Part shown: positions 9,610 through 50,587 of the stretch, one piece after another
Layout of the letters: every line of letters begins with the position of its first letter
Numbering within the stretch: position 1 is the first letter of the stretch
From: Ancylonema sp.
Taxonomy: Eukaryota
Reading direction: 5' to 3'
DNA length: 64,000 nt
Assembly: GCA_050230475.1 (NCBI GenBank)
Contig: JBFLGF010000098.1
Span: 1 to 64,000 of the forward strand
Notes under the pieces: model-generated
The model's database searches: none
What the model was told of the DNA's origin: nothing
What the model saw: the letters and a program-made list of their open reading frames with translations, nothing else
Translations under genes and position numbers: made by a program

Positions 9610-10593
9610 GAGAAGTGTGGAGGTTCTGGCCGTTGGAAGACATACCAGGCCGACTCGTTGGAGGAGCGGATGGGTTTATTAGTGGTCGAGAGGTTGGAAA
9701 GAAGTTTGACTCTGATTTCGAGCTGGTTCGTACGTTTTGTCTTCGGCCGATGATAGGACTGTGATGTACATTTTTTGCTACATGTATGATAGTGTATAGA
9801 AATATGGTAAGCAACATCGGATAAGTTGGCGTATCGAATAAGGTTTTTTTTTAAAAAAAACTCCATGTGTTGATATCGAGAGGATATGACATCGAGAGGA
9901 TATGGAAATGGGGAGTATATATCCTCATTGATGTGTTTGTGGAATCATTGTGAAAGTATGCATCATGTTCTTTGACTTTCATTATTACGACATGCAATGC
10001 ATTTAATACGAATGCAACTTCAACTTTCATTCTATTTTTTCTGAGTAATCCTTAAGCGTCGTTCATCCATTTTAGGCTGGAAATGAAAATAAAAAGGTAA
10101 GGACTAAATTTATATACCATGAGCCGATCATATCGATTGTCATCATGTTTATGATTATGATTAAGTCACATCATGACAAGGATTGTAGAACTTATGACGG
10201 GTATCATTTTGATTGCGAAGGTATGTAAATGTGACTCATAAGTGTGATGTAAACAATTAAAAATCGTGCTAAGCGCTTTAACTATCAACACAATGAATGG
10301 TATACTGCGTGAAATGAAATAGTTCTTGAAATGCAAAATGAGATTTGTTTGGCATTAATATTTTCGCAAGTCGAAATATCGAAGCCGATTTTCTTGAAGC
10401 CGGAATGCCTCGCGTCCTATGACAATTACTATTGTTATGTTAACAATTTACAAATGAAGTATGTATCGCTATGCTTAGGATGTAGAATGGCGAAAGTAAG
10501 GAAGTATATTGATATCTTTCAACATCTTCTCAACGATGTCAATATATAGACGTCGTGGCAAGTTAACACTTAGCTTGTACGGCAATTTGGTTT

Positions 10594-11017
<424 letters not shown>

Positions 11018-11099
11018 AAGGCAATGAGATGGGAGAAGCTGAAGGTCATGTTTTGCGAGAAAAATATAAATTTATAGCGGCTCTAGACCCCGAATTGAA

Positions 11100-15419: not shown

Positions 15420-16930
15420 GAAAAGACCCGAGTAAAGAACTAAGTAATATGTCAAATGCAAAATATGCGATATGCGACACATCACATCCCGCGTCTAATA
15501 ACAATTGTACTACGACTGTGACTGTTGATCCATGAGTTGACTCGTCGGGACACATCGAAGACTCGAAGCTCTGTCAGGTTGAGTCACTGCCAACTCATGC
15601 TGCGCCACGTGCACAGTCTTCGGTGTTCAACATCCCGAGGCCAGGCCGAAATGTTCAGACCCCCGTATTGTCGACAATCTACTCGTTACAACAGACAGAT
15701 TCCTTGAGAAGCCCGAAACAACTTGCCAGTGAAGAAATGTTTTCTGGCCAAGACATACTCGACCACCAAAAGCAGGAGCATTCAGGCTTGCTATTCTGTC
15801 GAAAGCTCCAAACAATGTACGTACGCGGCGCGTATGTACTTTGTTTGGAGCCTCCAGGCTGTATCTCTGCTTTTGATAGTCGAGTGATTTATGCCAAGGA
15901 GTTTATCAGTAGTTGACAAGCGTATCGAAGGGCTTTGCACAGGTTCTAGTCACGCGATAAAATAATAGAATATGCTCACGAAACTCCACAATTGACCCTT
16001 CGATATCATGCCATCAGTTTCACGATAAATATGCCAAGCAACGAAACAAGCACATTGACTTTCAGACGATCCGCCTACACGTCCTTGTTTTGTTTTCAAG
16101 GAGGCTCCGATTTCAGACTGCGATGTCACCTCCTCATCTCCCTGAGCTTCCTCCGAAAAATATGATCGTTAAATCTACGCTGCTTTTTGTCGGAATGGTC
16201 CTCAACTTTTTCATGCCCGCAGGTCTGTTGATTGTATTTTTTGCTCAATCATTTATCAGCGTCTTGCATTGTGCAATTCCCGACTTCACTATGTGCGAGA
16301 TTTCCGAAATAAATTAATATTTCGAAAGAGTTCGATACATTAACTGTGATGTTGTCGCCATGTGAGGCAGCGGCCCAGCTGGAGACTTTGCTCATCATAA
16401 AAATGACTGGAGCGGAGCAAGTTGGTTTTCCTGCTGACCCTGATGGCAAGGGCACTTGTTACTTGAACTTCGACTACGAGGTGCTCTACGGTCTTTTCAT
16501 ATCCGACATTCAAACAATTTATAATGCAGTTCAGAATTTGACTCGTAATCGTTGATGTGAACATAATATCGTGTTTCTCAAATGACAAGCTCCAGCACAA
16601 GCTGAATTTTTTATTGGGACATTCATTCGGAATTATCTACTTCGAGTCTTGAAATTATCGATGATGATATATATGATTGTGCGGTTCGATTTTGTTTTTC
16701 GCAGGTCATCTCCATTGAATTCAATTGCTACTTCGAAAGAATTTCCGAGCCTGAACGGCTCCAGATTATGTTCGGCAACTGGCTATCGAACTCAGTCACA
16801 GCATGCACAAAGATCGATCTCCTGAAGGGGAAGACCGGTTTCAAGAGTCCCAAGTACGGATATTATCAGGTTTGAAATCAGCGATGTCAGACACCCGTTA
16901 CACCGAATATACATTATACAGTTTTTGTAA

Positions 16931-17044
<114 letters not shown>

Positions 17045-19676
17045 ATGTTATATCATGCTATACCATTGTATTATATATCATTATGATTATTTTGTCATGT
17101 ATGAAGTACGTCTCGTCAAAATCATGGCTGTCAAATATTTTATTTCCCGTACCTAAATTGCAGAATTCAGAGAGATGATCCCGAAAGTGCCCCGGAAATG
17201 CTCCAAAATTCAATGAGATCTCATTTGACTCAAACTCATCACACCACTAAGATATGATTCCATAGGATTGCGCAATCTAGAAATCAGTGCACCCGTGCTG
17301 CTACAGTGTATGGGTGTGAAGCCCAAAATGTCGTGAAGGGTTTATCGCCGTCGTTCCCCATCGATAGCGTCACTAGCGGACACGATCTTCCCAATCGGGC
17401 GCAAATGATTTCCGCCCCACTAAAGGCGCAACGGGTTTTGTGTGGCTGTAGGTATACGGTGTGTTTGCCACATCGAATGGGGCCCTCAACGCCATTTTAG
17501 GCACTCCTTCAGCCTATTTTGTTGAGGTGCGGACGCGGCAGTTCCGAAGAGGTGATTTCTTATTGTACCTTTTCCACCGTCGGATGAACATCTCGATTGC
17601 GGGTGCATTGAGAGCGGCAAACCGAACGCATTTAAGTTATTGAACCAAATATTTTCCGAACCATTTTTAAAATCGCTCCATGTAATCGTTAGTGCTCATT
17701 TTTGGGATGATCATCGGGATTAAAAAAGTGCTCACAAGTTATTTTCAAGTCGCATTGTACGGAACGGATGTACGGACTACATGTACGGAAGTACGAAGGA
17801 CTATTGAACCACCTATTGATGCGTGTGCAGAGTGTCCCGGTCATACGGGCGGAACACCGGCTGAAACCGGCCAAGTGTATTGCGGGGGTAAGTGTATGCC
17901 ACGTGTAATCAAGAATGTCGCCAATTTGTAATCTTCTCTTTGGTGGAAGACTTCCCACGTGTGAGAAGTGCTTCCATGTACATGAAGTGGGCTTCGTGTG
18001 AGACCATCTTTCTTTTCAAATAATTTTCCGGAAAATAAAGTATCAAAAGGTGAACTCTTCTTTGTGTAAGTGCCACCGCGATTGACGTAAGTAGGGCATG
18101 ACAAGCTTTTGAAGTGTACCGTAGAGTCCTTCCCCTTCTACCCTGCTTTGTCCTCATTCAATCGAAGGTGTATGTGTTTTGTAGGAGCGTTGCGCGGACA
18201 ACTCCAGGTTCAACATGGAGGTTTCTATGCGACATATAGGTGGATAATAATAATAAGAAGAAATTATCAAACACGCAGTCGTTCTCTTGGATCACATCAA
18301 TTGAAATATGTTTTCCTTTCATATATAAGCTGAGGTAGCTAGTTAGTTTCCGACTTAATCTAGCGCAATGGAGCATGCATTCATTTTTGGAACTTAGAGA
18401 TTTTAAAGCTTTACTTTCTCAACACGTGGTCAACACATATGGCAAGAATGGTCGCATGTCGAGACGACCTTCATAGGACCACTTCACACTATGAGATCAA
18501 TAGGGTGTGAGGAAAGTATATCGTGCAAACGGCATTGATTTCCCCCCAATATGTTGTTCTTCGTTGTACTATTGCAGCGATCGCAATTTGGCGAATCCGC
18601 CCTAAAGAAGGGTTGGGATATGATTGGTGATCATATGCCGTGTGCGACGTTTCATTGGCGACATCGGTCGTGGCACAAGCTTGAGGGAGGAATAGTTGGG
18701 AATAATTTTAGAGAGAATGTCATCAGTGGTTCTCTATTATAGAGTTGACTTCTGTTTGGTATTTGGTGGTTGATAAGGTTTGATTTTAGCACAAGGGATC
18801 AACATGCCATAGATAATTCACGGCTCACTCCTTCCCCTTAATACCGTACCGGGCACACTACTATTTCATGTTTTTTCAAAACGATTCTTTTGCTTAATGT
18901 GTTGTTGTTCCGGGATATCAACTCATAAAATTCAGAAAATTGAACTGATTTGAATGATCTATAGCAAACGATTATACCATTTCAGGAAGTTATACAAAAA
19001 TGTTTTGCGTATTTCAATGATTGTTTACAAATCATACCGTGTGCCTAATACTAACCATTTGGTCACATGTTGAAATACTCCGCATATTTCCGATCAATTT
19101 CTTTACATGCAACCTCTTCTCTCCGATTTTTGGATTTTGGTCGGCTAGTTTTGTTGACAATCGTCTCATTTGAAACTAAACATTTTAGGGAGTGATTTGG
19201 TGGTGAAGCAAGGAATTATATTGGGCATGTTTCAATTCGGCAATGCTTACATCATTCTTTTAATTGATAGCGTGATGGAAATTGTCATTTGCGAAAAACA
19301 CGTGACGAGGCCAATGGAGAGCGTGATGTTTAGTTTGTATTTCATCTCTCTTGGGGCCCAATTCCGTGTAGCAGAGCCGTTCCTTCATGTCAAGAACATG
19401 TTCTTCCAAGTCCACCGCTAATTCCATTTTCCTACAACTCCTAGTCTAAAAACACCCCTCGGGTGATTGATGTCGGCTTAAAAAATGCTTGGTTCTCTTC
19501 CCTGCAACAGCAAAAATTCCGGCTTTCGCCAGAAACCCTCCAACAACTAGATCCTGGAATAAATAGTCTCCGAACTCGCTTATTCACCACCCCTCCACTC
19601 CGACTCAAAACTGAATAATTTATGATGGCCAATCACAAGGGTCGGTTCTACGACCTGCTGATCACATCTACGAGCT

Positions 19677-22600
19677 CTAGGTGGCCCCCTTCACTCCGCG
19701 CGGGAAAAACACTCCATTCGTCTTCCCCGCCCCGCCAAAAACGGTCGCCAACACCTTTGCAGGCGTCCGGGAATACGCCACCGCGTCGGATCCACTCGGC
19801 ACCAAATTATGAAGGTCGCCATCCTTCCCCCTCCCGAGGAAGGCGCGGAAGGCAGAGGCTGCGTCCACTAGGGTGTCCACCGTGGCTCCATAGGGGAAGA
19901 CGATCTCCTCCAGAGCAAGAGAGAGGAGGGTGCGGATGGCACCCGCGTGGTACGCTTCTGTGGCCATAATGCCAGAGGCAGTCTGCGGGAGAGAAGGAAG
20001 AGAAAGGTAAGGTACGGGAAGTGGTACAGGGAGGGAGGTGATATGTAACCTGATATATATGTAACCTATACATAATCTATATGTAACCTGAAATGTAACC
20101 TATATGTAACATATGTATGTAACCTATATGTAACATATATGTAACCCCGTTCTGGTGACGTCACCTCCTGTCCACCAAACTTGTGTCGTAAAAGTTGTGG
20201 CCTTGTTTGTTGGACCAGGTTCATTGCTCGCGACCATGGCTTAGTCTATTGCGAGACCAAAATAGGACGAGGAGGTATCTCATGCATGTCACAAATCGGG
20301 AGTCCAGTCCCCAGTCCTGTGCCTCAAAAGTGTACCCACTGCTGAAATGACCTGAGAGAGGTGTGATACCACCAGACAGATCCTGACAACATACAGTAAG
20401 GGGTCGAATACTTTTCAGAGCTTCTTCTGGTTCCCATTTAACAGTCAACAGTTCATGCCATCCATCCCATCTGTCGCTAACCGGAAGAACAAGTTTTGAA
20501 ACGAGTCCCAGAGCGTAGTGGTAGGCCGTGACACCGACGTCCTCAAAAAGGAAGGCTCCGAGGTAGAAGAGAAGGTCGTCTTCATATCTGTGGGCCAACC
20601 AGGAGGGGGAATCAGAAAAGAAGGAGGACACGGTGATCCTCTCCATCAACCACCAAATTCAACCTCTTTTCTTTTTCCTTCTTCCTTCCATGCTTTCATC
20701 CCGATGTAGCGATCCGAATCAACGATGTAAAAAACGATGAAAACCAACGCCGGCAATCAGCTGGAGGGAGCAGTGAGACAGGGACACGTGTGACTCACGG
20801 AGAGAAGGGCACGGGGAGGGAGGTGACATTCAGCGCCCCGAGAACGACTGCTTGAAAGGCAGGACCAATGTCCACGACCGGACACGAGAAAGCATGTACG
20901 CCCAGGGCGGCTCGGATGAGTACCACGTGCGCGATTTCGTCCGCGGCAATGTCTTGCGCGAGGAGAGACGCCTTGGCGCTGAGCAAAGCCTTCTTTCCTC
21001 CGATCGCTCGCGCACCTCGGCCGCCTTGCTTGCGGGTCAGGCCTTTGCCGTGGGCGGCCCAGGAGTAGAATTGCGCCTCCAGGCACTCTGGACACGGTGC
21101 GGGACGGTCACAGTGTTAAGGACCTCGTTATAGAGGACAGTTGGGGACGATTTGGGACGATTTAAAACGATTCGGGACGATTCGGGACGATTTTTTTGCG
21201 ACGTTTTGATGGTACATTTTTCGGATTGGGTGATTTTTGTAAGAGAAATTTACTTTGAGAAACATTCTGTGCCATTTTTTTGTTGTTTTCTACATCGGGG
21301 TTTCCTCCTGTATCGGAGTGACGTCACGGTGAGGGACGAGGTTGGGGGGGACTTGTGTAGATTTGATGGCGAGGAAAGAAACTGATTCAAATTCAAAGTG
21401 TTGGAGTGGGAGAGTGAGTTTCGTGAGTAGTGATTCATTTCGCCTGCTTCCGTTTCCTCACCAAGGTTGAGCGCAAACTGCAGAACGGCAATGTCGGTTT
21501 CGGTGAACACTGGCGGGGCAGCGTACTGCAGAACAGCAAACTCAGTGTCAGTGGATCCGAAATGGATACTCTGCAAACGAAGTGGGTGACAAACGACCCG
21601 AAAATCTGAGAGAGTGATTTTTTTTGTACGTGCCCTTTTCAGAACACCTGCTGGATTCGAATTTAGAACGCAAAAGGAGGAGGAACTCACAGCAGCACAG
21701 CTGGCGGGGGAGGCCTTGGGGCAGCCGCGCACGTTACAAATGCTCTGGGGAGCAACGGGGTCGGGGCCCAGACTGCATACCGAGGAATGGGGGTGGGGGG
21801 GGGGGTCAGGTAACAACATGTGGTACAGGAATCGCCAGCGACGAGTGCAACAAAAACGCGACCTCCACGTCATGGACCTCCGCAGCACAGTGCGATACTC
21901 ATTCTACGTTCGATGTTCTATGTTCGATGTTGAGGGGACAGCGCAGAGGTGTATGACGGGTGGACATGAGGAACTCACACAGCAGGCGCGGAGCATCTTC
22001 GCCCGAAGAGCCCAGTGAGGCCATTGGCCACGATGGTGACGTCAACTGCCGACACGCCGTACGCGGCGGCGGAGGCCCCCACTTGGGAGATGAAATACGT
22101 CGTCTGCGGGTTGTTGAGCTTCATGAACTTGTGCGTCTCGTACATGCTGGCGTCCCCGCCGTACGCGGGGAAGGTGGTGGATCACACGGCGGAGCAACCG
22201 AGGAGGGTGCCGAAGAGGTGGTAGAGGTGGGTGAGGAGCATTCACTGGTTGGAGGTGCACCCGGTGTCGGCATCGTTGGAAGGCTGGGAGGGGGAGGGAG
22301 GGGGGGTTCAGGTGAGGCGAATTCAGATCAGGGTGGTCGCGGGAAAATGCATAACGGCGGTTCCAAGATTGATCCGTAACGCTACCTAGAGAGAGTAATA
22401 TTTGCACCTTGTTCTTAGTGAGGGGAGCCGCTCCTCCATTGTCCAGGAAGTTAACATTACTGGGCTTGCCATCCTCATTGGTGGATTTTGCGGTTCCATC
22501 GAAGAACTGGAGAAGGCTAACTAGTTCGCCATTGACGGTCGCGTTCGCCAGGATACCCGGGACAACCAAGTCGGTGGGGGTTTTTGTATAATTTCCGATC

Positions 22601-23115
22601 ACAACAGTATTGACAAGGATTGTGAGGAGAAAATACTCATGGGCGGGTAAGGTATCGCCGAGAACAGCCGTGGAGTAGTAATCCTGCGAGTAGATAGGGA
22701 ATTGACGATGAGATACATCACAAAGAGGTGTGAATCCCGCAAATGCTACACCAAGCACAGCCAAAGTGGATAGGAGGAAGGGAAGACAGAATAAACTAGC
22801 TGCACGTATATCAGAGCTGCGTCCGGATGTCCTGATGCCACTGGAAAGGGTAAGGAGATATGCTCACGCAGATAGTTATGTTAGCAGGGCGTTCAGCGGT
22901 ACTGCAAGCAGGAAAACAGGGACGTGCACAAGGCGAGGGATAGTAAGTAGACTAAATGTACAGCAGGCAACGAGAGAGACGGTGGATACAGTCATTCGTC
23001 AGCGTCAACGACGGCGCTCAGACGGCCCTCTCTGACAAACGGGAGCTAGGATCACTCACCTGGTGCCCGCGAAAGCGAGCAAGCACGCCAAGATAGCAAC
23101 CAGGCTGAACTTCAT
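19677..23115 (-). pseudogene. 9-exon secreted fusion: signal peptide + truncated-globin-like domain + desiccation-related (PCC13-62/DRP) ferritin-like domain; two in-frame TGA in exon 4. Exons 23115-23060, 22901-22868, 22683-22408, 22283-21979, 21772-21691, 21525-21462, 21087-20799, 20587-20482, 19982-19677
   Basis: All introns GT-AG with compatible phases. N-terminus MKFSLVAILACLLAFAGTSTA. Ferritin-like DRP motifs LQFALNLECLEAQFY, ADEIAHV, FEDVGVTAY, EAYHAGAIRTLL, FFPRGVKG. TGAs at 22244-22242 and 22184-22182. Confidence 0.8.
20040..20145. repeat. ATATGTAACC-type minisatellite in the last intron of the fusion gene
   Basis: About 8 imperfect ATGTAAC units visible. Confidence 0.8.
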
Positions 23116-23754
23116 TTTGATTATGTGAGTAGCGTGCCAACAACGAGAGGCGATCTGCGACGAAACTCCGTAATGAAGTGGCGATGTAGCTTCAACTGGA
23201 GATGAATTGGAGCCAGGTCGGGATTTCAGCTGGAGTGAGAAGCAATCAGAAGACTGACGTGACTGACTGCAGAGCGATAGACGGGGGAACATACCGTACC
23301 CGATTTAGATGAAGTCTGATGGCTAGTGGTCGAAAATAAATTGGGACGCTGCGATTGTCACACGTGTTTTTTGTTGAGGTACAGCCAAGAAGATAAAACA
23401 AAATTCAGCGCTGTGCTAAATGTTCCGGATTGGGTTTGTTACTTGTCGGGACTCTGCTGGCCACCTACACAGATGCTGATAGCCCGGATGCGGTATCTCG
23501 TGCGAGAGAAGCATCCAATTCGAGCACGTGTCAGCAATAATCTCGTACTTTTTTATATTTTCTGGTGGATTAACAATCACCGACAATACCAGCGGCACGC
23601 GGGACACGCCACTGCACGATACGCCAAACACTGTGGGCAAGCTGCCAATTTAGACCGGCTTGTACATTCGAGCTAGGATTGGGCCCCCTCTTCCGCACGT
23701 GACTACCGCCTTGACGTGAAAGGTGTGTTTCACTGTACGGATTAACGAGCGCAT

Positions 23755-24010
23755 GAGCCCAAGATCAGTGGGGAGTCCGGAGTCTAATGAGCCCGGAGCC
23801 CTTAAGCTCCAGGCTCATTGAGCTCGGAGCCCAAAGGATGGAAAAATCCTAGCCTCTGAACCTAAAGAGCCCAAAGAGGCCGGAGCCCAAATCGGAGCCC
23901 GGAGCTCGGAGCCTGGAGCCCAACTCTGTTGGGCTCATTTGGGCTCCTGTGCACTCATTTGAGCTCATCTGGGCTGGTTTGGGCACATTTGGGCTCATTC
24001 TGGCTCAATT
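23755..24010. repeat. GAGCCC/GGGCTC inverted repeat array, probable DNA-transposon terminus
   Basis: Many GGAGCCC units followed by TTTGGGCTC units in the opposite orientation. Confidence 0.5.
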
Positions 24011-27000: not shown

Positions 27001-27206
27001 CCTATGGCGATCCAAATTCTGTGGATGATGAGATCCCAGATGCTGTGGGAAATCCATCACCACAGCTTCCGAGTTCTCCTCTTCCTCAGAGTGCGGATCT
27101 TCCAAAACTTATCAGCGATCCTAGTAGAGACGATGAGGACGAAGATCACCTAGATGATGGTCCATAATGGTATCTAGATGATGCTACTCCTCTTAATCCG
27201 CTTGGC

Positions 27207-29434
27207 GTGACGGACGACTCTTCTGAAACTTCTATCGATGATCCAGAGTCTGACCCTCGGCATGTTCGTCGATCTGCAAGGGACAATAGAGGAGTGCATC
27301 CCAACAGATTTGCTGCTGCTTTTGTTGCCAACTTAGAGAGTGAGATAAAGACACCCACGACTGTGGAGGAGGCTCTTAACAGTCCACAACGGCCTCAGTG
27401 GCAAGCTGCAATGGTCGTTGAAATGGGAAGTCTACAAGAGAACCGGGTCTATCGACTTGTGCCTAGGCCGAGGGGGAAGAAAGTTGTGAAGTCAAAGTGG
27501 GTGTTCAAGATCAAATTCAATGTTGATGGTTATGTAGAAAAATACAAAGCAAGAATTGAGGCTAAGGGATTCAGTCAAGTAGAGGGAGTGGACTACGATC
27601 AAACCTTTTCTCCAAGTGTTCGATTTGAGAGTATTCGTCAACTTGTCGCCATGGGAGCTTCCAGGGGTCTACACATGCACCACAAGGATGTTACAACAAC
27701 TTTTCTCTATGCGCCCCTGGAAGAGGAGGTGTACATGGAAGCTCTTGACGGCACGTGTGGGCGTGGTGAAGCAGATTTAGTGTGGCTGCTACTCAGGTGC
27801 CTGTATGGCCTCAAGCAGGCGCCGAGAGGATGGAATCAGCACATCGACGACGTGCTAAAAGGCATGAAGTCTCATCGCCTGGCTTCAGATTTTGGCCTTT
27901 ATATTCTGGGAGAAGGGCCAGAAGCACTCTACTTGGCGCTATATGTGGATGACGTGTTTCTCCTATACATGAGGCTGGCGACTATTTTTGGGGTGAAAGG
28001 AGGGCTGGGAAAGCGCTATAACATGAAAGATCTGGGAGAAGCAAAGTTCTTGTTGGGGCTTGAGATTCGAAGGCAGCCTGATGGCAACGTGTATTTGGTG
28101 CAAGATAAATATTTCAGAGATCTGCTCACAATGTTTGGGATGCAAGACTGCGATTTTGCTGCTAATCCTCTTGAGCTGGGTGTCATTTTTTTTGCAAACT
28201 GTGAAACTGCTTCTGAATCTGCTAGAATAGAGGGTGTGGGATACAAGTATGCAATGGGCAGTTTGCTATATCTGACTTCTGGCACAAGACCCGATCTGGC
28301 AGCTGTGGTTAACTCCTTGTGTCGATACAATCAGCAGCCAGGGGACAAGCATTGGGAGGGGGCTAAGAGAGTTTTGCGCTGTCTAAAGGGAACTGTCGAT
28401 TTGGGGCTGATGTATAAGAAAGAGAGTGATTTGCTAGTCATGGGTTACTCATATGCTAGTCATGGTGATGACGTCGACACGAGGAAGGGGAAAATTGGCT
28501 ATGTCTTTCTTAGTGGAGGAGCTGTTGTGCGTTGGAAAAGTGGTATGCTGGAAACAGTCACACACTCAAACTGTGAAAAGGAATATTTGGCATTGAGTGC
28601 TGCTGGCAATGAAGCTATTCATTTGAGCCAGATGCAAAAAGAGTTGGGTATTGGTGGGGGGAGTGTGCCGTTGCTGGGGGATAATGAGAATTCTTTGAAA
28701 CTTGTTGAGAATCCTGTCTTACACAAAAGCTCCAAACACACCAAGATCAAGTATCATTCCATTCGAGAGAGGGTGTCCAAGAAAAAAAACCAATTTCCAG
28801 TTTGTAAAGAGTGAAGACCAGGTTGCTGATATGTTGACAAAACCGGTGTTTGTCAAGGTGTTGAAGAAGAATTGTGCTTTGGTGGGGTTGGTGTATGAAA
28901 AATAGTTTCGTGAGTTCTGTGAGTTTTTGTTGCATTTTGTTTGTAAAATCGATATCGTTTTCGTTATCGTTTTTGGAGGGGGAATACAAAAGTACTTAGG
29001 GAGGGGGTGTTAGTTTTTAGGGAATGTGAACTTTTGTCGTTATATCGATTTTAGCAATACCGGGAATTTAGCTTTAGTTTTGTCGTTATTCAGCAAATGC
29101 ACGCTGCAGGCCGGCTGCAGGCCGATGTCCTTGTTTCAATGATTACTTGGCCATCTGGCACAAGTGTCGATAAGAACTAGTTGATGAATTGGCAGATGCT
29201 TAGATATGATTGGCAGTTGACTAAGTAGTTTCGATATCTGTAGATCCTTTGACGAGGCAGCAATCGACTGTAATAGGTCTGGGCTTGCATGCTGAATTCG
29301 TTAATCAATACTTTCTATTTCAAACTTGCACTTTTGTTGTGTCGACGTTTGTAATGACGTGATCCGTTTGATTCAAAGAGATTAAGAAGAAGTGAACTTT
29401 ATTCTTGCATCGATGGCAGAAGAAAGTTCTCACA
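27207..29434 (+). mobile_element. 5'-truncated Ty1/Copia retrotransposon: RT-RNase H, PPT and 3' LTR (29008-29434)
   Basis: SKWVFKIK, YKARIEAKGFSQVEGVDY, LYGLKQAPRGW, LYVDDV, TRPDLA, KHTKIKYHSIRE, DQVADMLTKP (frameshift in the A-run near 28790); PPT AGGGAGGGGG at 28998-29007 followed by TGTTAG; LTR homologous to 39459-39870. Confidence 0.93.
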
Positions 29435-44240: not shown

Positions 44241-44301
44241 TCGGAATCTTTTGACCAGCTGTTTCTAACTGCCTACCTCGCTTGTATCTCCATTACTTAC
44301 C

Positions 44302-45115
44302 ATGGCCGCCGTTGCCATGTCCGCTGCCGTTGCCCCCGCCACCTTCGCTGCTGCTGCCTCCACCAAGAGCAGCTCCCAGCAGACCGTCTCTGCCTTCGTT
44401 GGCCTCAAGAGCAGCGTGTCCACCAGCAGCTCCTTCTCCTCCAAAACCGTCTCCAATGGCTCCAGGATCAGCTGCATGAAGGTGATTAAAATGTCTGGAT
44501 ACAGCACGCTTAAGCGCAGACTATCTATTCGTTAAAGATTCAGCTCCATGTTTTCAAGATCTAGACGTGTAGTTCTCAAAATCAGTCCAACAAGGGTTGA
44601 GAGATCTGCTCCTTCATAGAAATTTATAGCATGGTTGATCCGGGTAAAGGTTGGATACTTCCATCAACGTCAACGTTTTCTCAATGCACTGTCTCTCATA
44701 TTTCCTGACATCATTCTGGTATGTTATTGCTCAGGTGTGGACCCCTGTGAACAACCCCAGATTCGAGACCCTATCCTACCTCCCCCCCCTGTCCGTGGAT
44801 GACATCATTAAGCAGATCGACTACATGCTGAGCAAGGGATGGTTCCCCTGCATCGAGTTCGACATGTGTGGCGTTGTCAGCCGCGAGTACAATGACGGTC
44901 CCGGCTACTATGATGGCCGATACTGGACAATGTGGAAGCTTCCCATGTTCGGATGTACCGACGGTGCTCAGGTTGTGAGGGAAGTTGCCGAGTGCAAGGC
45001 TTCCTACCCGGAGGCCTACATCCGTGTCCTGGGTTTCGACAACATCAAGCAGGTGCAAGCTGCGTCCTTCATCGTCCACAAGCCCCGCCCCTCGTACTCC
45101 AAGTCCTATTTCTAG
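44302..45115 (+). CDS. rbcS: Rubisco small subunit precursor; exons 44302-44481, 44735-45115
   Basis: Ser/Ala-rich transit peptide ending [10 protein letters not shown], then [49 protein letters not shown]; intron at the conserved position just after the start of the mature protein. Confidence 0.98.
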
Positions 45116-48049: not shown

Positions 48050-50587
48050 TGTGAGTGTTACCATCATCCATGATGCCTTCTTTACACCAATAGCTTCAAT
48101 CTTCAGAATCAAACTTATTCACCACATGCCATACAAGAGAGTCGAGTCTTGATTGCAATGAGTCCGATTGAATTTTATGGCGGCCGCAACTTGGCTTAAG
48201 TAAACATGCCTTGTTGGATGTATCGTTCTAACGAATATTTGTTAAAAGATCTAGCAAGAAGGCATGTTGCCACAAAATCGATATAACGAATATTCTCAAT
48301 ACAACAAAGTTTCTAGCCAATTCTCACACCCCCTCCCTAGAAACTTTCGCACACACCCTCCAAAAATCATGGCATAGATATCGATTATTCACATCAAAGT
48401 TCCCCCCCCCACCAAAGAACTACCCCCTCCCAATCGAAAGCTGCCCCCTCCTAAACAGAAGGGTCCCCCCACCCCTTCCAAGCATAATTCCTAAGGAGCA
48501 GCAACAAGCCCAATCATGTCATAGTTTGTCTGATGGATGTTAACGGGGACTGCCTTAGTGAGCATATCAGTGCTAAAACTCACTCTTAACAAACTGCAAC
48601 TTGATCAATCTTTTGGCTACCCTCTCCCGAATAGAGTGCCACTTCAACTCAATATGCTTGGATTGACGATGAAATACTGGGTTCTCTCCCCCTCCCCCCC
48701 CTTCCCATGCGTGTGGCCTCATCATTTCCATGACTCTTGTCCGAGTATCACCAGACAGACAGCTCCCCCCCACACTGGTACAACAGGAGCATCATAATTC
48801 CTTTGCGACCACCCGCGCCTTGAACTTCTTTACCTCCCTAGTAGCATTCTTCTTCACCCTGAAGATCCACTTGGATTTGACTACCTTCACCCCAGGAGGG
48901 CGAGCCACTACCCTAAAGACCTTGTTCTCCTCCAGGCTGGTAGAAGTCATGGCAGCCTGCCAGACGTCACTTTCTGGAGATCTGATAGCGGCAAGTACAA
49001 TATGGTACTTGTCGACGAGTACGTTAGGAAGTCTTGGGCGGAAATTATGCGCTCCAAGGACGAGGCTGATGTGCGACTCTAACAGTGGATCGCGATGTGA
49101 GAAACTCAGGCCGGCAATACCCTCAACAATCTGCGGTCTGACGACGGAGGGAAGTTTATGGACGGGAGCTTTCAGCTCTGGCTCCGACATCGGGGAACAA
49201 ATGACGAGCTTACTCCCCCGCACAATCCTCAGACCAACGGCATCACCGAGCGCATAAACAGAACGCTCCAAGACCGCGCTCGGTCCATGCTAGCCGGCAT
49301 GAAACTCCCTTCTGGCCTCTGGGGCGCCAAAGACTTCGCCTCCTACCTCCGCAATCGCGGGTCTCCCGAAGACCCCGGAGGAGATTCAGTGGCCTGTTTC
49401 GCCGCGACCAGCAGGGGGAGCTGGCCATGGCGGCCAGGGTACTGCGGGAGCTGGAGCTAGAGGCCCTGGCGAGGCAAGTGGAGGTGGGGGTGCTAAAGAT
49501 GGGGGTGCTGGAGGTGGGGGTTGGAGTTCTGGCGGGGCTGGAGGTTGGCAGGCAGGGGCAGACGCAACTGGGGTGGGAGGAGCTGAAGCTGCAGCCACAG
49601 GCCCTGGTGCAGCGGGGGCAACTGGGGATGGGGGTGGGGGCGGGGAAGAGGCAGTTCCTGACGCTGTGGGGACTCCCTTACCTCAGCGTCAGGACCTTCC
49701 TCCCCGTCAGAACAACGATCTACCTGACCTCGTCAGCAACTCGAGCGGGGATAGCTACATGGACGAGCAGCTCGAGGACGGCCCCGAACGGCATCCCAAC
49801 GATGTAGACGCTGAGAATCCAGCCGGAGCTGGTCCCCCAAGTGGTGGTGGGGCTGGGGCTGGGGCTGGGTTAAGGGCAACCGCTGGAGTTGGGGTTGGGG
49901 CTGCGGGTGGAGCACCCTCGCCCCTCCCCCACCTACCCGCCGATCTGGCAGGGTGAACTCTGGCATTCCCCCTCTCAGATTCGTGGCAGGGTACGCTGCA
50001 CACGTGGCGCAGGAGGTCAGCACGCCAAAATCTGTCGATTTCCAGACAACGCGCGATGTTGTTGCTCACGAGCGACATTATGAGCATGACCGCGCGCTTG
50101 CATTTCTTCCGGTACAATTTCAAGTCCTCCGTGTACTCTTCCATCTCATCATAATTTGCTCGATTAGGCAATATCTCCTCGGGTTCCAACTCAGTCCCCT
50201 CACACACTTCTAAACAATCCTCATTGTCTAAAATTGCGCATGTTTTCGACCGCCATGCCTGAAACGGCACGCGGTCGCCATCGAAGATCGTATATCTTGC
50301 TCTGATACCACTGTGAGAGTTACCATCATCCATGATGCCTTCTTTACACCAATAGCTTCAATCTTCAAAATCAAACTTATTCACCACATGCCATACAAGA
50401 GAGTCGAGTCTTGATTGCAAAGAGTCCGATTGAATATTATGGCGGTCGCAACTTGGCCTAAGTGAACATGCCTTGTCGGATGTATCGTTCTAACGAATAC
50501 TTGCTAAAAGATCTAGCAAGAAATGTTGCCTCAAAATCGATACAACGAATATTCTCAATACAACAAAGTTTATAGCCAATTCTCACA
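48050..50587 (-). mobile_element. Internally deleted, rearranged Copia element with both LTRs (5' LTR 50587-50312, 3' LTR 48328-48050)
   Basis: Near-identical LTRs of about 278 bp with TG...CA; tRNA-iMet PBS TGGTATCAGAGC (minus, ending at 50310); PPT AGGGAGGGGG (minus, 48338-48329); TSD GTGCG/ATGCG; gag, RT-start and RNase H-end fragments on minus; integrase fragment on plus. Confidence 0.92.

What the first reader, a model, noticed from the sequence alone, without database searches (positions are those of the whole stretch)
19677..23115. Secreted fusion of a truncated-globin-like domain with a desiccation-related ferritin-like domain
Seen: nine phase-compatible GT-AG exons join into one frame: signal peptide - domain A (RPANITICDYYSTAVLG...LLTILVNTVVIGNYT...VPGILA...LLQFFDG...VNFLDNGGAAPL...LLTHLYHLFGTLLGCS...YGGDASMYETHKFM...YFISQVGASAAAYGVS...QSIC...CP...CAAY) - short linker - ferritin-like DRP domain with the di-metal ligand pattern (LECLE, DEIAH, FEDVG, EAYH). 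Knowledge: plant PCC13-62/DRP proteins are normally single-domain secreted ferritin-like proteins. The HL..LFG..LG / Y.G..SM...H..M / YGV spacing in domain A recalls the E, F (proximal His) and G-H helices of group I truncated (2/2) haemoglobins. Inference: an extracellular haem + di-iron protein, possibly for O2/NO/ROS handling during drying. I do not know of this architecture being described.
Basis: partly seen in the sequence, partly recalled or inferred. Interest (0 to 1): 0.88.

Follow-up and report, generated by a model that had tools for sequence, protein, structure and literature searches.

The report
Algal globin–ferritin-like fusion gene with stops
A green alga's gene joins, in one reading frame, a haemoglobin-like domain otherwise seen on fungal cell surfaces to a drought-associated metal-binding domain, a pairing our searches found nowhere else, but this copy carries two premature stop codons, so it may not make the full protein.

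Summary
On the minus strand, 23115-19677, nine GT-AG exons join into one 505-codon frame. The parts are a signal peptide, domain A, and a Ferritin_2 (DRP) domain with no start or signal peptide of its own.

Domain A is a truncated (2/2) globin. The AlphaFold model of its closest relative, P0035 (68% identical), superposes on group I truncated haemoglobins: Z 11.5-13.3, rmsd 1.7-2.3 Å, 117 of 117 residues of the Tetrahymena chain. A 63-sequence family profile aligns the near-invariant His (62 of 63; His173 here) with the proximal His of trHbN.

Domain A belongs to a large family with no Pfam model: 782 cluster representatives from fungi, chytrids, a diatom and this alga. Members normally end in a GPI-like tail.

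No other globin-ferritin fusion turned up. None of the 288 other fetched proteins and none of 26 metagenome DRP loci carries both domains.

Exon 4 holds two in-frame TGA codons (136 and 156). The second reads GGA (Gly, the family consensus) in the deeper run of the same sample.

The locus is therefore a real, apparently unique chimeric gene. This haplotype is null or very recently broken. Expression, haem binding and activity are untested.

The parts
23060..23115 (-). Exon 1: ATG at 23115 and a hydrophobic signal-peptide-like N-terminus (MKFSLVAILACLLAFAG..)
   Evidence: The first 16 residues are identical to those of relative P0035. That it is a signal peptide is inferred from the sequence; no predictor was run.
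22868..22901 (-). Exon 2: end of the signal peptide and start of domain A (..RPANITIC)
   Evidence: Cys30 is conserved in 53 of 63 relatives.
22408..22683 (-). Exon 3: globin helices A-C plus the long beta-hairpin insertion between the C and E helices
   Evidence: The secondary structure comes from the P0035 model.
21979..22283 (-). Exon 4: globin helices E, F, G and H; holds both in-frame TGA codons
22242..22244 (-). First in-frame TGA (codon 136). The family column is Tyr in 34 of 63 sequences, and Cys in the two closest relatives, P0035 and P0175
   Evidence: In run X2 the contig stops at 22243, so this base is unresolved there.
22182..22184 (-). Second in-frame TGA (codon 156). The family column is Gly in 43 of 63 sequences; run X2 reads GGA
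   Evidence: (22184 A>C, depth 153.5 of 153.5 in X2, 0 of 10.2 in X1).
22131..22133 (-). CAC codon of His173, the predicted proximal (F8) haem ligand
   Evidence: His in 62 of 63 relatives. It aligns with the His of 'MTEAHKGMNL' in Tetrahymena trHbN.
21691..21772 (-). Exon 5: Cys-rich C-terminal extension of domain A (..QSICNVRGCPKASPASCAA)
   Evidence: Cys236, Cys241 and Cys249 are conserved.
21462..21525 (-). Exon 6, the junction exon: the last residue of domain A (Y of 'CAAY'), a 7-residue linker, and the start of ferritin helix 1 (TDIAVLQFALNL)
   Evidence: There is no in-frame Met or signal peptide upstream of it.
20799..21087 (-). Exon 7: Ferritin_2 helices 1-2 with the ligand motifs LECLE and DEIAH
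   Evidence: Pfam PF13668 scores 34.6 bits against a cut-off of 24.7 on this exon alone. It is 52% identical to Mesotaenium DRP P0172.
20482..20587 (-). Exon 8: Ferritin_2 helix 3 (FEDVGVTAY); weak donor gttagc
   Evidence: (PF13668, 21.2 bits, profile positions 80-110).
19677..19982 (-). Exon 9: Ferritin_2 helix 4 (EAYH), the DRP C-terminal region and the TAG stop at 19679-19677
   Evidence: Both runs read AAG in place of TAG, which would move the stop three codons further on.

Best explanation
The sequence holds a nine-exon chimeric nuclear gene of a green alga. It joins in one frame a signal peptide, a group-I-like truncated-haemoglobin domain of a cell-surface family, and a DRP-type ferritin-like domain. 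The intact product would likely be secreted, and it is predicted to bind haem through His173 and two metal ions through the conserved Glu/His ligands. Shown: the splice-compatible frame; the 2/2 globin fold of the closest relative; the conserved proximal His; the Ferritin_2 membership with ligand motifs kept; the lack of an own start or signal peptide for the ferritin half; and the two TGA codons in exon 4, the second of which reads GGA in the deeper run. Inferred: a P0035-like gene (signal peptide, globin domain, GPI-like tail) lost its tail and was joined, at or near the last intron, to a DRP gene that lost its signal peptide. The assembled haplotype is a null or very young broken allele of a gene that was under constraint until recently. 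An intact protein would most likely act in the wall space on reactive oxygen or nitrogen species. In that model the ferritin-like half would remove H2O2, as the secreted DRP NmNec2 does. The haem half would bind or turn over O2, NO or peroxide, as group I truncated haemoglobins do.
For: All eight introns are GT..AG, and the frame runs across nine exons to 505 codons. Exon 6 carries both the end of domain A and the start of ferritin helix 1, with no in-frame Met or signal peptide upstream. Globin fold: the AlphaFold model of P0035 has pLDDT 88.2 and pTM 0.81. All 17 best listed Foldseek rows are group I trHb. VIA gives Z 13.3, rmsd 1.9 Å over 119 of 128 residues for M. tuberculosis trHbN, and Z 12.6-12.7, rmsd 1.7 Å over 117 of 117 for Tetrahymena. 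In the Foldseek-independent scan of 48,161 chains, all 12 chains with Z >= 8 are truncated haemoglobins, and the next best is Z 7.1. The family profile hits Tetrahymena trHbN at E 0.007 and aligns His with His. Pfam Bac_globin passes its cut-off on three multi-copy relatives at 35.7, 33.3 and 24.4 bits against 21. The window copy keeps 42 of 43 columns that are conserved in at least 80% of relatives. For the ferritin half, exon 7 alone passes PF13668. That half is 48% identical over 241 residues to P0172, which scores 144 bits on PF13668. E273, E276, E323, H326, E384, E413 and H416 are kept. The second TGA reads GGA at full depth in run X2, and Gly is the family consensus there. NmNec2, a secreted DRP, is a catalase (passages of PMC8812537).
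Against: Two in-frame TGA codons stand in the assembly. Run X1 supports both, and the first is unresolved in X2. No RNA evidence could be obtained. No orthologous fusion was found anywhere, so the join is young or private. The gene lies in TE-rich DNA, with a copia RVT_2 at 27168-28811. The ferritin half keeps only 30 of 42 columns that are invariant in 48 metagenome DRP ORFs, against 35 and 37 for two single-domain algal DRPs, and it has several Gly replacements. The donor of intron 8 is weak (gttagc). Haem binding, metal identity and activity are untested, and a tardigrade Ferritin_2 protein is a phosphatase and not a catalase (PMC11616004). The fold was modelled on a 68%-identical relative, not on the window's own spliced product.
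Confidence: 0.55

Rival explanations
1. It is a decaying chimeric pseudogene. A rearrangement in transposon-rich DNA placed a signal-less DRP fragment behind a duplicated cell-surface globin gene, and the product was never, or is no longer, made; translation would stop at codon 136.
For: Two TGA codons stand in the assembly, both supported by run X1. No fused relative occurs among the 288 other fetched proteins or the 26 DRP loci. A copia element and other repeats lie in the window. The ferritin half departs from family-invariant columns more than single-domain algal DRPs do, at 30 of 42 against 35 and 37 of 42. The last donor is weak.
Against: There are no frameshifts. All 16 splice dinucleotides are intact. 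Of the conserved globin columns, 42 of 43 are kept, and all ferritin ligand motifs are kept. Each TGA is a single base away from a sense codon seen in relatives or reads (TGY Cys, GGA Gly). The deeper run reads GGA at the second site. Any decay would therefore be extremely recent.
Confidence: 0.3
2. The locus mainly makes an ordinary secreted DRP by skipping exons 3-5. These sum to 663 nt, a multiple of three, so the signal peptide of exons 1-2 would be joined directly to the ferritin half and both TGA codons bypassed.
For: The exon lengths 276 + 305 + 82 = 663 keep the frame. The resulting signal peptide plus Ferritin_2 layout is the normal DRP layout, as in P0172 and P0173.
Against: This rests on arithmetic alone, and no transcript data exist. 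The skipped exons have consensus splice sites and a fully conserved domain, which is unexpected for exons that are never used.
Confidence: 0.07
3. It is a gene-model artefact: two adjacent independent genes, a globin-like gene and a DRP gene, that only appear joined.
For: In every relative found, the two domain types occur separately.
Against: No Met-initiated signal-peptide exon exists between exon 5 and exon 6 in any frame. The globin gene would lack the S/T-rich linker and hydrophobic tail of its relatives. Exon 6 contains residues of both domains.
Confidence: 0.04
4. The TGA codons are read as amino acids, either selenocysteine or a variant nuclear code, so the assembled copy is intact as it stands.
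For: The first TGA aligns with Cys in the two closest relatives, which is the classic Sec/Cys pattern.
Against: No SECIS or any other Rfam family was found in 18800-23400 at E <= 1. The second TGA aligns with Gly or Asn, not Cys, and is GGA in another run. The rbcS ORF and a 548-codon RVT_2 ORF in the same window are open under the standard code, without TGA.
Confidence: 0.02

Closest known systems
Group I truncated (2/2) haemoglobins, trHbN (M. tuberculosis 1idr/2gln, Tetrahymena 3aq5, Paramecium 1dlw, Chlamydomonas 1dly)
   Same: Same 2/2 helical fold over the whole length of the solved chains, with Z 11.5-13.3 and rmsd 1.7-2.3 Å. The Y-x-G...M..(V/A)HK.M.L motif is shared, with the proximal His aligned. 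Group I chains score above groups II and III and above 3/3 globins.
   Different: About 214 residues are spanned for about 117-119 aligned. A long beta-hairpin insertion lies between helices C and E, and there is a disulfide-type Cys-rich C-terminal extension. The domain is preceded by a signal peptide, so it is extracellular, whereas the solved trHbN are cytoplasmic. Single copies do not reach the Pfam Bac_globin cut-off. Haem binding is not shown.
Cell-surface truncated-haemoglobin-like family of fungi, chytrids and diatoms (e.g. P0002 Apodospora, P0041 Orbilia, P0045 Geranomyces, P0003 Nitzschia 'bacterial-like globin'; nearest: P0035, P0175)
   Same: The window's domain A is a member: 68% identical to P0035 and 47-53% to ascomycete members, with 42 of 43 conserved columns kept. 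It has the same signal peptide as P0035.
   Different: Members end in a Ser/Thr-rich linker and a hydrophobic GPI-like tail, or are tandem repeats. Here the tail is replaced by a ferritin-like domain.
Desiccation-related proteins of the Ferritin_2 family (CpPCC13-62; NmNec2 nectar catalase; Mesotaenium P0172; tardigrade RvFeMP-1, PDB 8kce/8w9k)
   Same: Exon 7 passes PF13668. The ferritin half is 48% identical over 241 residues to P0172. The four-helix ligand motifs are kept. The P0172 model's best structural match is the tardigrade protein.
   Different: The domain's own signal peptide is absent and an N-terminal globin domain stands in its place. Several family-invariant Gly and Ala residues are replaced. 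Activity (catalase, phosphatase or other) is unknown.
Bacterioferritin and flavohaemoglobin (functional analogies, recalled, not homologues of the fusion)
   Same: Bacterioferritin combines haem with a di-metal ferritin-like centre. Flavohaemoglobin is a globin fused to a redox partner domain.
   Different: Bacterioferritin binds haem between subunits and has no globin domain. Flavohaemoglobin uses a 3/3 globin and an FAD reductase. Neither is secreted. This comparison rests on general knowledge and not on a call, apart from bacterioferritins appearing among the weak fold matches of the DRP model.

Membership tests
Group I truncated haemoglobin (2/2 globin, Pfam PF01152 Bac_globin) | 2-on-2 alpha-helical globin fold | tested here: met
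   The model of P0035 (68% identical to the window's domain; pLDDT 88.2) gives Z 13.3, rmsd 1.9 Å over 119 of 128 residues for 2gln_A, and Z 12.6, rmsd 1.7 Å over 117 of 117 for 3aq5_A. All 12 chains with Z >= 8 out of 48,161 are truncated haemoglobins. This was tested on the relative, not on the window's own spliced product.
Group I truncated haemoglobin (2/2 globin, Pfam PF01152 Bac_globin) | Proximal His (F8) conserved and in register | tested here: met
   His is present in 62 of 63 relatives and in the window (His173, codon 22133-22131). The profile alignment puts it on the His of MTEAHKGMNL in Tetrahymena trHbN, E 0.007.
Group I truncated haemoglobin (2/2 globin, Pfam PF01152 Bac_globin) | Sequence match to the Pfam model above its gathering score | tested here: not met
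   The window's exons 3 and 4 gave 0 families. Single-copy relatives P0001, P0002, P0035 and P0175 gave none. Only the multi-copy relatives P0003, P0007 and P0004 pass, through summed scores of 35.7, 33.3 and 24.4 bits against 21. The domain is therefore a divergent relative and not a Pfam-recognised member.
Group I truncated haemoglobin (2/2 globin, Pfam PF01152 Bac_globin) | Compact domain of about 115-130 residues without large insertions | tested here: not met
   Model residues 24-238 are spanned for 117-120 aligned. Strands and short helices at 78-118 form an insertion between C and E, and a Cys-rich extension runs to about 252.
Group I truncated haemoglobin (2/2 globin, Pfam PF01152 Bac_globin) | Distal-site residues (B10 Tyr, E7/E11 Gln) | not tested
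   No tool gave a residue-level structural alignment of helices B and E. Conserved Gln134, His140 and Tyr142 (P0035 numbering) lie on helix E, but their positions in the pocket were not mapped.
Group I truncated haemoglobin (2/2 globin, Pfam PF01152 Bac_globin) | Binds haem b | not testable with these tools
   This needs expression and spectroscopy.
Ferritin_2 / desiccation-related protein (PF13668) | Match to PF13668 above its gathering score | tested here: met
   Exon 7 alone scores 34.6 bits against 24.7, E 2.5e-8, profile positions 15-80. Exons 8 and 9 continue the profile at positions 80-110 and 118-136.
Ferritin_2 / desiccation-related protein (PF13668) | Dinuclear-site ligands on the four helices (Glu; Glu-x-x-His; Glu/Asp; Glu-x-x-His) | tested here: met
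   E273/E276, E323/H326, E384/D385 and E413/H416 are all kept, in columns that are invariant or nearly so in 50 DRP sequences. The ligand roles are taken from passages of PMC11616004.
Ferritin_2 / desiccation-related protein (PF13668) | Single-domain protein with its own N-terminal signal peptide (plant and algal DRP layout) | tested here: not met
   There is no Met or signal peptide before exon 6; the globin domain stands there instead. P0172 and P0173 have the usual layout.
Ferritin_2 / desiccation-related protein (PF13668) | Enzymatic activity (catalase as NmNec2, or phosphatase as RvFeMP-1) | not testable with these tools
   This needs an assay.
Cell-surface trHb-like family (fungi, chytrids, diatom, algae) | Conserved domain core including six Cys and two His | tested here: met
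   42 of 43 columns conserved in at least 80% of relatives are kept. The only departure (Glu for Gln) is shared with P0035.
Cell-surface trHb-like family (fungi, chytrids, diatom, algae) | C-terminal Ser/Thr/Pro-rich linker and hydrophobic GPI-like tail | tested here: not met
   After 'CAAY' the frame runs into the ferritin domain.
Selenoprotein (TGA = Sec) | SECIS element in the transcript | tested here: not met
   No Rfam family at E <= 1 in 18800-23400 on either strand.

The most novel reading that the evidence does not exclude
An intact allele of this gene makes a secreted two-centre enzyme in which an extracellular truncated haemoglobin and a DRP-type dimetal catalase-like domain work as one unit in the algal cell wall. 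This 'Rosetta stone' fusion would reveal that the uncharacterised cell-surface globin family of fungi, chytrids, diatoms and algae and the enigmatic desiccation-related proteins act in the same extracellular redox pathway during drying and rewetting.
Probability: 0.15. Interest if true: 0.8.

Novelty: new variant of a known kind. Interest (0 to 1): 0.52.

Why it matters
There are two reasons.

First, it extends a large, unnamed family of exported truncated-haemoglobin-like proteins to a green alga. The family has 782 cluster representatives and no Pfam model. The 2012 census of fungal globins recorded group 1 T globins in only two early-diverging fungi (passages of PMC3287990). Together these show that 2/2 globins have a widespread extracellular branch whose ligand and role are unknown.

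Second, desiccation-related ferritin-like proteins are expanded in terrestrial algae (passages of PMC9434271), but their chemistry is disputed between catalase and phosphatase. A natural fusion to a haem domain, if expressed, would be a direct functional hint that both act on reactive oxygen or nitrogen species outside the cell, and it would give a simple construct to test.

The value is limited because only one locus shows the join, this copy carries premature stops, and no expression data exist.

Tried and rejected
- **Own genome.** No genome is held for this window, so paralogues and intact copies could not be sought. tblastn of the model against the window found no second copy. Self-blastn of 18500-24000 against the window found no shared repeats.
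- **ESM Atlas on exon 3.** Only low-score, unrelated clusters came back.
- **Word-index searches.** Searches with exon 3 and exon 7 found 2 and 3 proteins and missed P0035, so they are weak evidence about fused forms.
- **Sequence searches against PDB.** phmmer of P0002, P0003 and P0172 found nothing meaningful.
- **RNA evidence.** No RNA holder was listed by the look-up of sequencing runs, so expression could not be examined.
- **Second read-laying.** The state of base 22242 in the deep run stays unknown.
- **Metagenome scan with exon 3.** No relative was found.
- **Metagenome scan with exon 7.** It returned 26 loci with intronless, mostly tandem DRP ORFs at 34-49% identity. tblastn found no domain A in any of them.
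- **Selenocysteine or recoding.** Rejected; see the rival explanations.
- **'Heme haloperoxidase family profile' label.** Some UniRef names of relatives carry it, but Pfam gave no peroxidase family for any of the 36 relatives scanned, so it was not followed.
- **Recent transfer from ascomycetes.** A quick tree of 52 rows (SH-aLRT only, midpoint root, six long branches) puts the window, P0035 and P0175 in a starred clade with chytrid and unnamed sequences, apart from the Pezizomycotina. There is no support for such a transfer, and no rooted test was done.
- **Complex prediction.** The job on the P0035 globin domain with the P0172 ferritin domain gave 'no answer' (score 0.00, controls not run). 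This says nothing either way.
- **Literature.** Searches returned no listed title or abstract describing a globin-Ferritin_2 fusion or a secreted or GPI-anchored truncated haemoglobin. Only listings and abstracts were seen for most papers, and no supplements were read.
- **Our earlier findings.** Look-ups by sequence and by place returned nothing.
Full report
**What is in the sequence.** Reading the minus strand of 19300-23500 and translating it in three frames shows a split gene. An explicit model (after a first attempt with wrong boundaries) has nine exons: 23115-23060, 22901-22868, 22683-22408, 22283-21979, 21772-21691, 21525-21462, 21087-20799, 20587-20482 and 19982-19677. All eight introns (124-499 nt) begin with GT and end with AG. 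The phases are compatible, and the joined frame is 505 codons plus TAG. The frame holds two TGA codons in exon 4: codon 136 at 22244-22242 and codon 156 at 22184-22182.

**The host is a green alga.** The window also carries a RuBisCO small-subunit gene: PF00101 scores 129.6 bits on 44648-45112 (+). It also carries a copia-type reverse transcriptase: RVT_2 scores 203.8 bits on 27168-28811 (+). This is therefore nuclear DNA of a green photosynthetic eukaryote with transposon-rich surroundings. The 'VWTPVNN' start of the mature RbcS suggests an alga and not a land plant; that motif is recalled from memory, not tested. Both of these ORFs are open under the standard code.

**Domain A is a truncated globin.**
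- Pfam finds nothing on the window's exons 3 and 4 or on single-domain relatives.
- An exhaustive phmmer search with the ascomycete relative P0002 found 782 cluster representatives at E <= 0.001, and 130 at E <= 1e-30.
- Named members are Pezizomycotina, chytrids (Boothiomyces, Geranomyces) and a diatom protein with four tandem copies that its depositors called 'bacterial-like globin'.
- Of 30 relatives scanned with Pfam, three multi-copy ones pass the Bac_globin cut-off of 21 bits: P0003 at 35.7, P0007 at 33.3 and P0004 at 24.4. A fourth, P0056, reaches only 13.4 bits, and 26 gave no globin match.
- A profile of 63 near-full-length members (alignment A1) hits Tetrahymena group 1 truncated haemoglobin in the PDB sequence set at E 0.007. 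The alignment places the family's near-invariant His on the His of 'MTEAHKGMNL'.
- AlphaFold2 on A1, with P0035 as first sequence, gave pLDDT 88.2 and pTM 0.81.
- In Foldseek against the PDB, the 17 best listed rows are all group I truncated haemoglobins. They are weak individually: E 0.1-1.5, target-normalised TM 0.46-0.55.
- VIA-align on those candidates gave Z 13.3, rmsd 1.9 Å, 119 of 128 residues for M. tuberculosis trHbN, and Z 12.6-12.7, rmsd 1.7 Å, 117 of 117 for Tetrahymena. Group II (10.8), group III (8.8) and myoglobins (about 6) score lower.
- The Foldseek-independent scan of 48,161 representative chains gave 12 chains with Z >= 8. All are truncated haemoglobins, with group I first at 11.5-12.6. 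The next best chain is a 3/3 globin at 7.1.
- The tool warns that helical proteins can reach Z of about 13 by arrangement alone. Here the match covers whole chains, stands well above non-globins, and agrees with two independent sequence-profile results.
- The domain differs from canonical trHbN in three ways. It has an insertion with beta-hairpins between helices C and E (model residues about 76-130). It has a Cys-rich C-terminal extension. It is preceded by a signal peptide.

**The window's copy is a well-kept member.** It is 68% identical over 256 residues to P0035, a 289-residue protein from a 1141-nt Logan contig, and 47-53% identical to ascomycete members. The first 16 residues are identical to those of P0035. 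It keeps 42 of the 43 columns that are conserved in at least 80% of the 63 relatives, including His141, His173 and six Cys. The one departure is shared with P0035. Relatives end in a Ser/Thr/Pro-rich stretch and a hydrophobic tail typical of GPI-anchored proteins; this is inferred from sequence. In a quick tree of 52 rows the window groups with P0035 (SH-aLRT 97) and the EukProt transcript P0175 (95). These sit inside a 12-row starred clade with chytrid and unnamed sequences, apart from the Pezizomycotina. The tree is unrooted in effect and has six long branches, so it gives no support for a recent ascomycete origin and does not test one.

**The second half is a DRP-type ferritin-like domain.**
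- Exon 7 alone passes Pfam Ferritin_2 at 34.6 bits against 24.7. Exons 8 and 9 continue the profile.
- The half is 48% identical over 241 residues to a Mesotaenium protein, P0172, and 48% to P0173. Both are signal peptide plus Ferritin_2 only, at 144 and 146 bits.
- The ligand positions E273/E276, E323/H326, E384/D385 and E413/H416 are kept. Their roles come from passages of the tardigrade structure paper (PMC11616004).
- The AlphaFold model of P0172 (pLDDT 77.9) finds that tardigrade protein as its best PDB match, followed by other ferritin-like bundles, all at weak E-values of 0.01 or more.
- The window's ferritin half keeps 30 of 42 columns that are invariant in 48 metagenome DRP ORFs. P0172 and P0173 keep 35 and 37. 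Several Gly-to-Tyr, Arg or Val changes are present. This is a modest sign of relaxed or altered constraint.

**The join is a fusion, as far as DNA can show.** Exon 6 encodes the last residue of the globin family's 'C-x-A-Y' motif, seven linker residues, and the start of ferritin helix 1 (TDIAVLQFALNL). No frame between exon 5 and exon 6 offers a Met followed by a signal peptide. The ferritin half therefore has no way to be secreted except through exon 1.

**No other fusion was found.** None of the 152 proteins then in hand matched the ferritin half. Of all 291 proteins fetched by the end, only the three DRPs matched it. None of the 26 metagenome DRP loci, with flanks of up to 6 kb, encodes domain A. 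These samples are limited: the best 150 of 782 representatives, 120 of 219 word-index hits restricted to 158-506 residues, and mostly bacterial DRP loci. A fusion elsewhere is not excluded.

**The stop codons.**
- Contigs of two runs of one sample (X1, X2) and of a metagenome (X3) were laid on 19600-23200.
- At 22184 the deep run X2 reads C at depth 153.5 of 153.5, which gives GGA (Gly) on the coding strand. Gly is the family consensus there, in 43 of 63 sequences. X1 reads A like the window, at 0 of 10.2.
- The first TGA is present in X1's contig. In X2 the listed contigs end at 22217 and begin at 22243, next to a variable site at 22218 (His or Gln), so base 22242 is unresolved.
- The two closest relatives have Cys (TGY) at that column.
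- Both stops are thus one base away from sense codons that occur in relatives or reads.
- The window differs from both runs at 19679 (TAG becomes AAG), 22475 (Glu becomes Val, as in two aligned relatives), 23101 (silent), and at two intron sites.
- The assembled copy is therefore a null haplotype, a very recent pseudogene, or partly an assembly error, and at least the second stop is not fixed.
- Recoding is unlikely. No SECIS or other Rfam match was found, and other ORFs in the window are open under the standard code.

**Mechanism (inferred).** A P0035-like gene lost its GPI tail and was joined to a DRP gene lacking its signal peptide. An intact product would enter the secretory pathway: it has a signal peptide, four N-x-S/T sequons and conserved Cys pairs. 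It would likely bind haem through His173 and carry a dimetal centre in the ferritin-like half. A secreted plant DRP is a catalase (passages of PMC8812537), and a tardigrade relative is a Zn/Mg phosphatase (PMC11616004). DRPs are expanded in terrestrial algae (passages of PMC9434271). I favour extracellular handling of peroxide, O2 or NO during drying and rewetting, at moderate confidence. A complex prediction between the two domain types gave no answer.

**Comparison with what is known.** The 2012 census of fungal globins reported group 1 T globins in only one blastocladiomycete and one chytrid genome (passages). My searches found no paper on secreted or GPI-anchored truncated haemoglobins or on a globin-Ferritin_2 protein (listings and abstracts only). 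My fold and profile tests agree with it and extend the family to a green alga.

**Verdict.** The structural interpretation is supported, and the functional one is untested. This copy carries premature stops. The finding is a new domain architecture built from two known superfamilies.

Noticed in passing
window 44269-45112 (+): A nuclear rbcS gene. A transit-peptide-like exon lies at about 44269-44532, and the RuBisCO_small domain (PF00101, 129.6 bits) lies in the ORF 44648-45112. It shows that the window is from a green photosynthetic eukaryote.
   Followed up: partly
window 27168-28811 (+) and 49101-49457 (+): A 548-codon open frame carries a copia-type reverse transcriptase (RVT_2, 203.8 bits). 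A separate integrase-like fragment is present (rve_3, E 3.4e-4). The fusion gene therefore sits in transposon-rich DNA.
   Followed up: partly
window 10475-11082 and 16795-17175: Long (TA)n/(TATG)-type microsatellites give spurious open frames in all six frames.
   Followed up: no
window 20056-20146 (intron 8) and 21144-21193 (intron 6): There are short tandem arrays inside introns: an 11-nt unit TATATGTAACC in 8 copies, and a 10-nt unit GGGACGATTT in 5 copies.
   Followed up: no
window 19679, 20263, 21965, 22475, 23101: Both runs of the matching sample read a different base from the window at these five sites. One removes the TAG stop, and one changes Glu to Val. The assembly therefore carries base errors or represents another haplotype.
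   Followed up: partly
window 21991-22139 (exon 4), runs X1/X2: A second contig with 13 differences and one inserted base, and raised depth (up to about 400 against about 115), covers the most conserved part of the globin exon. This suggests at least one paralogue of domain A in the same sample, possibly the P0035 gene.
   Followed up: no
L001-L025 (metagenome loci): Intronless DRP-type Ferritin_2 genes occur as tandem pairs, or as arrays of up to four, in most loci. The ORFs are about 250 residues long and are spaced about 250-300 nt apart.
   Followed up: no
proteins P0176, P0181, P0207, P0222, P0232 and others: UniRef labels several fungal members of the globin-like family 'Heme haloperoxidase family profile domain-containing protein'. 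No Pfam peroxidase match was seen for the relatives scanned, so the label looks like an automatic profile hit and needs checking.
   Followed up: partly
proteins P0075, P0135, P0120, P0147: Some family members carry a single-pass transmembrane segment (matched by TM_ErbB1) after the globin-like domain in place of a GPI-like tail. This would be a membrane-anchored variant of the same cell-surface layout.
   Followed up: no
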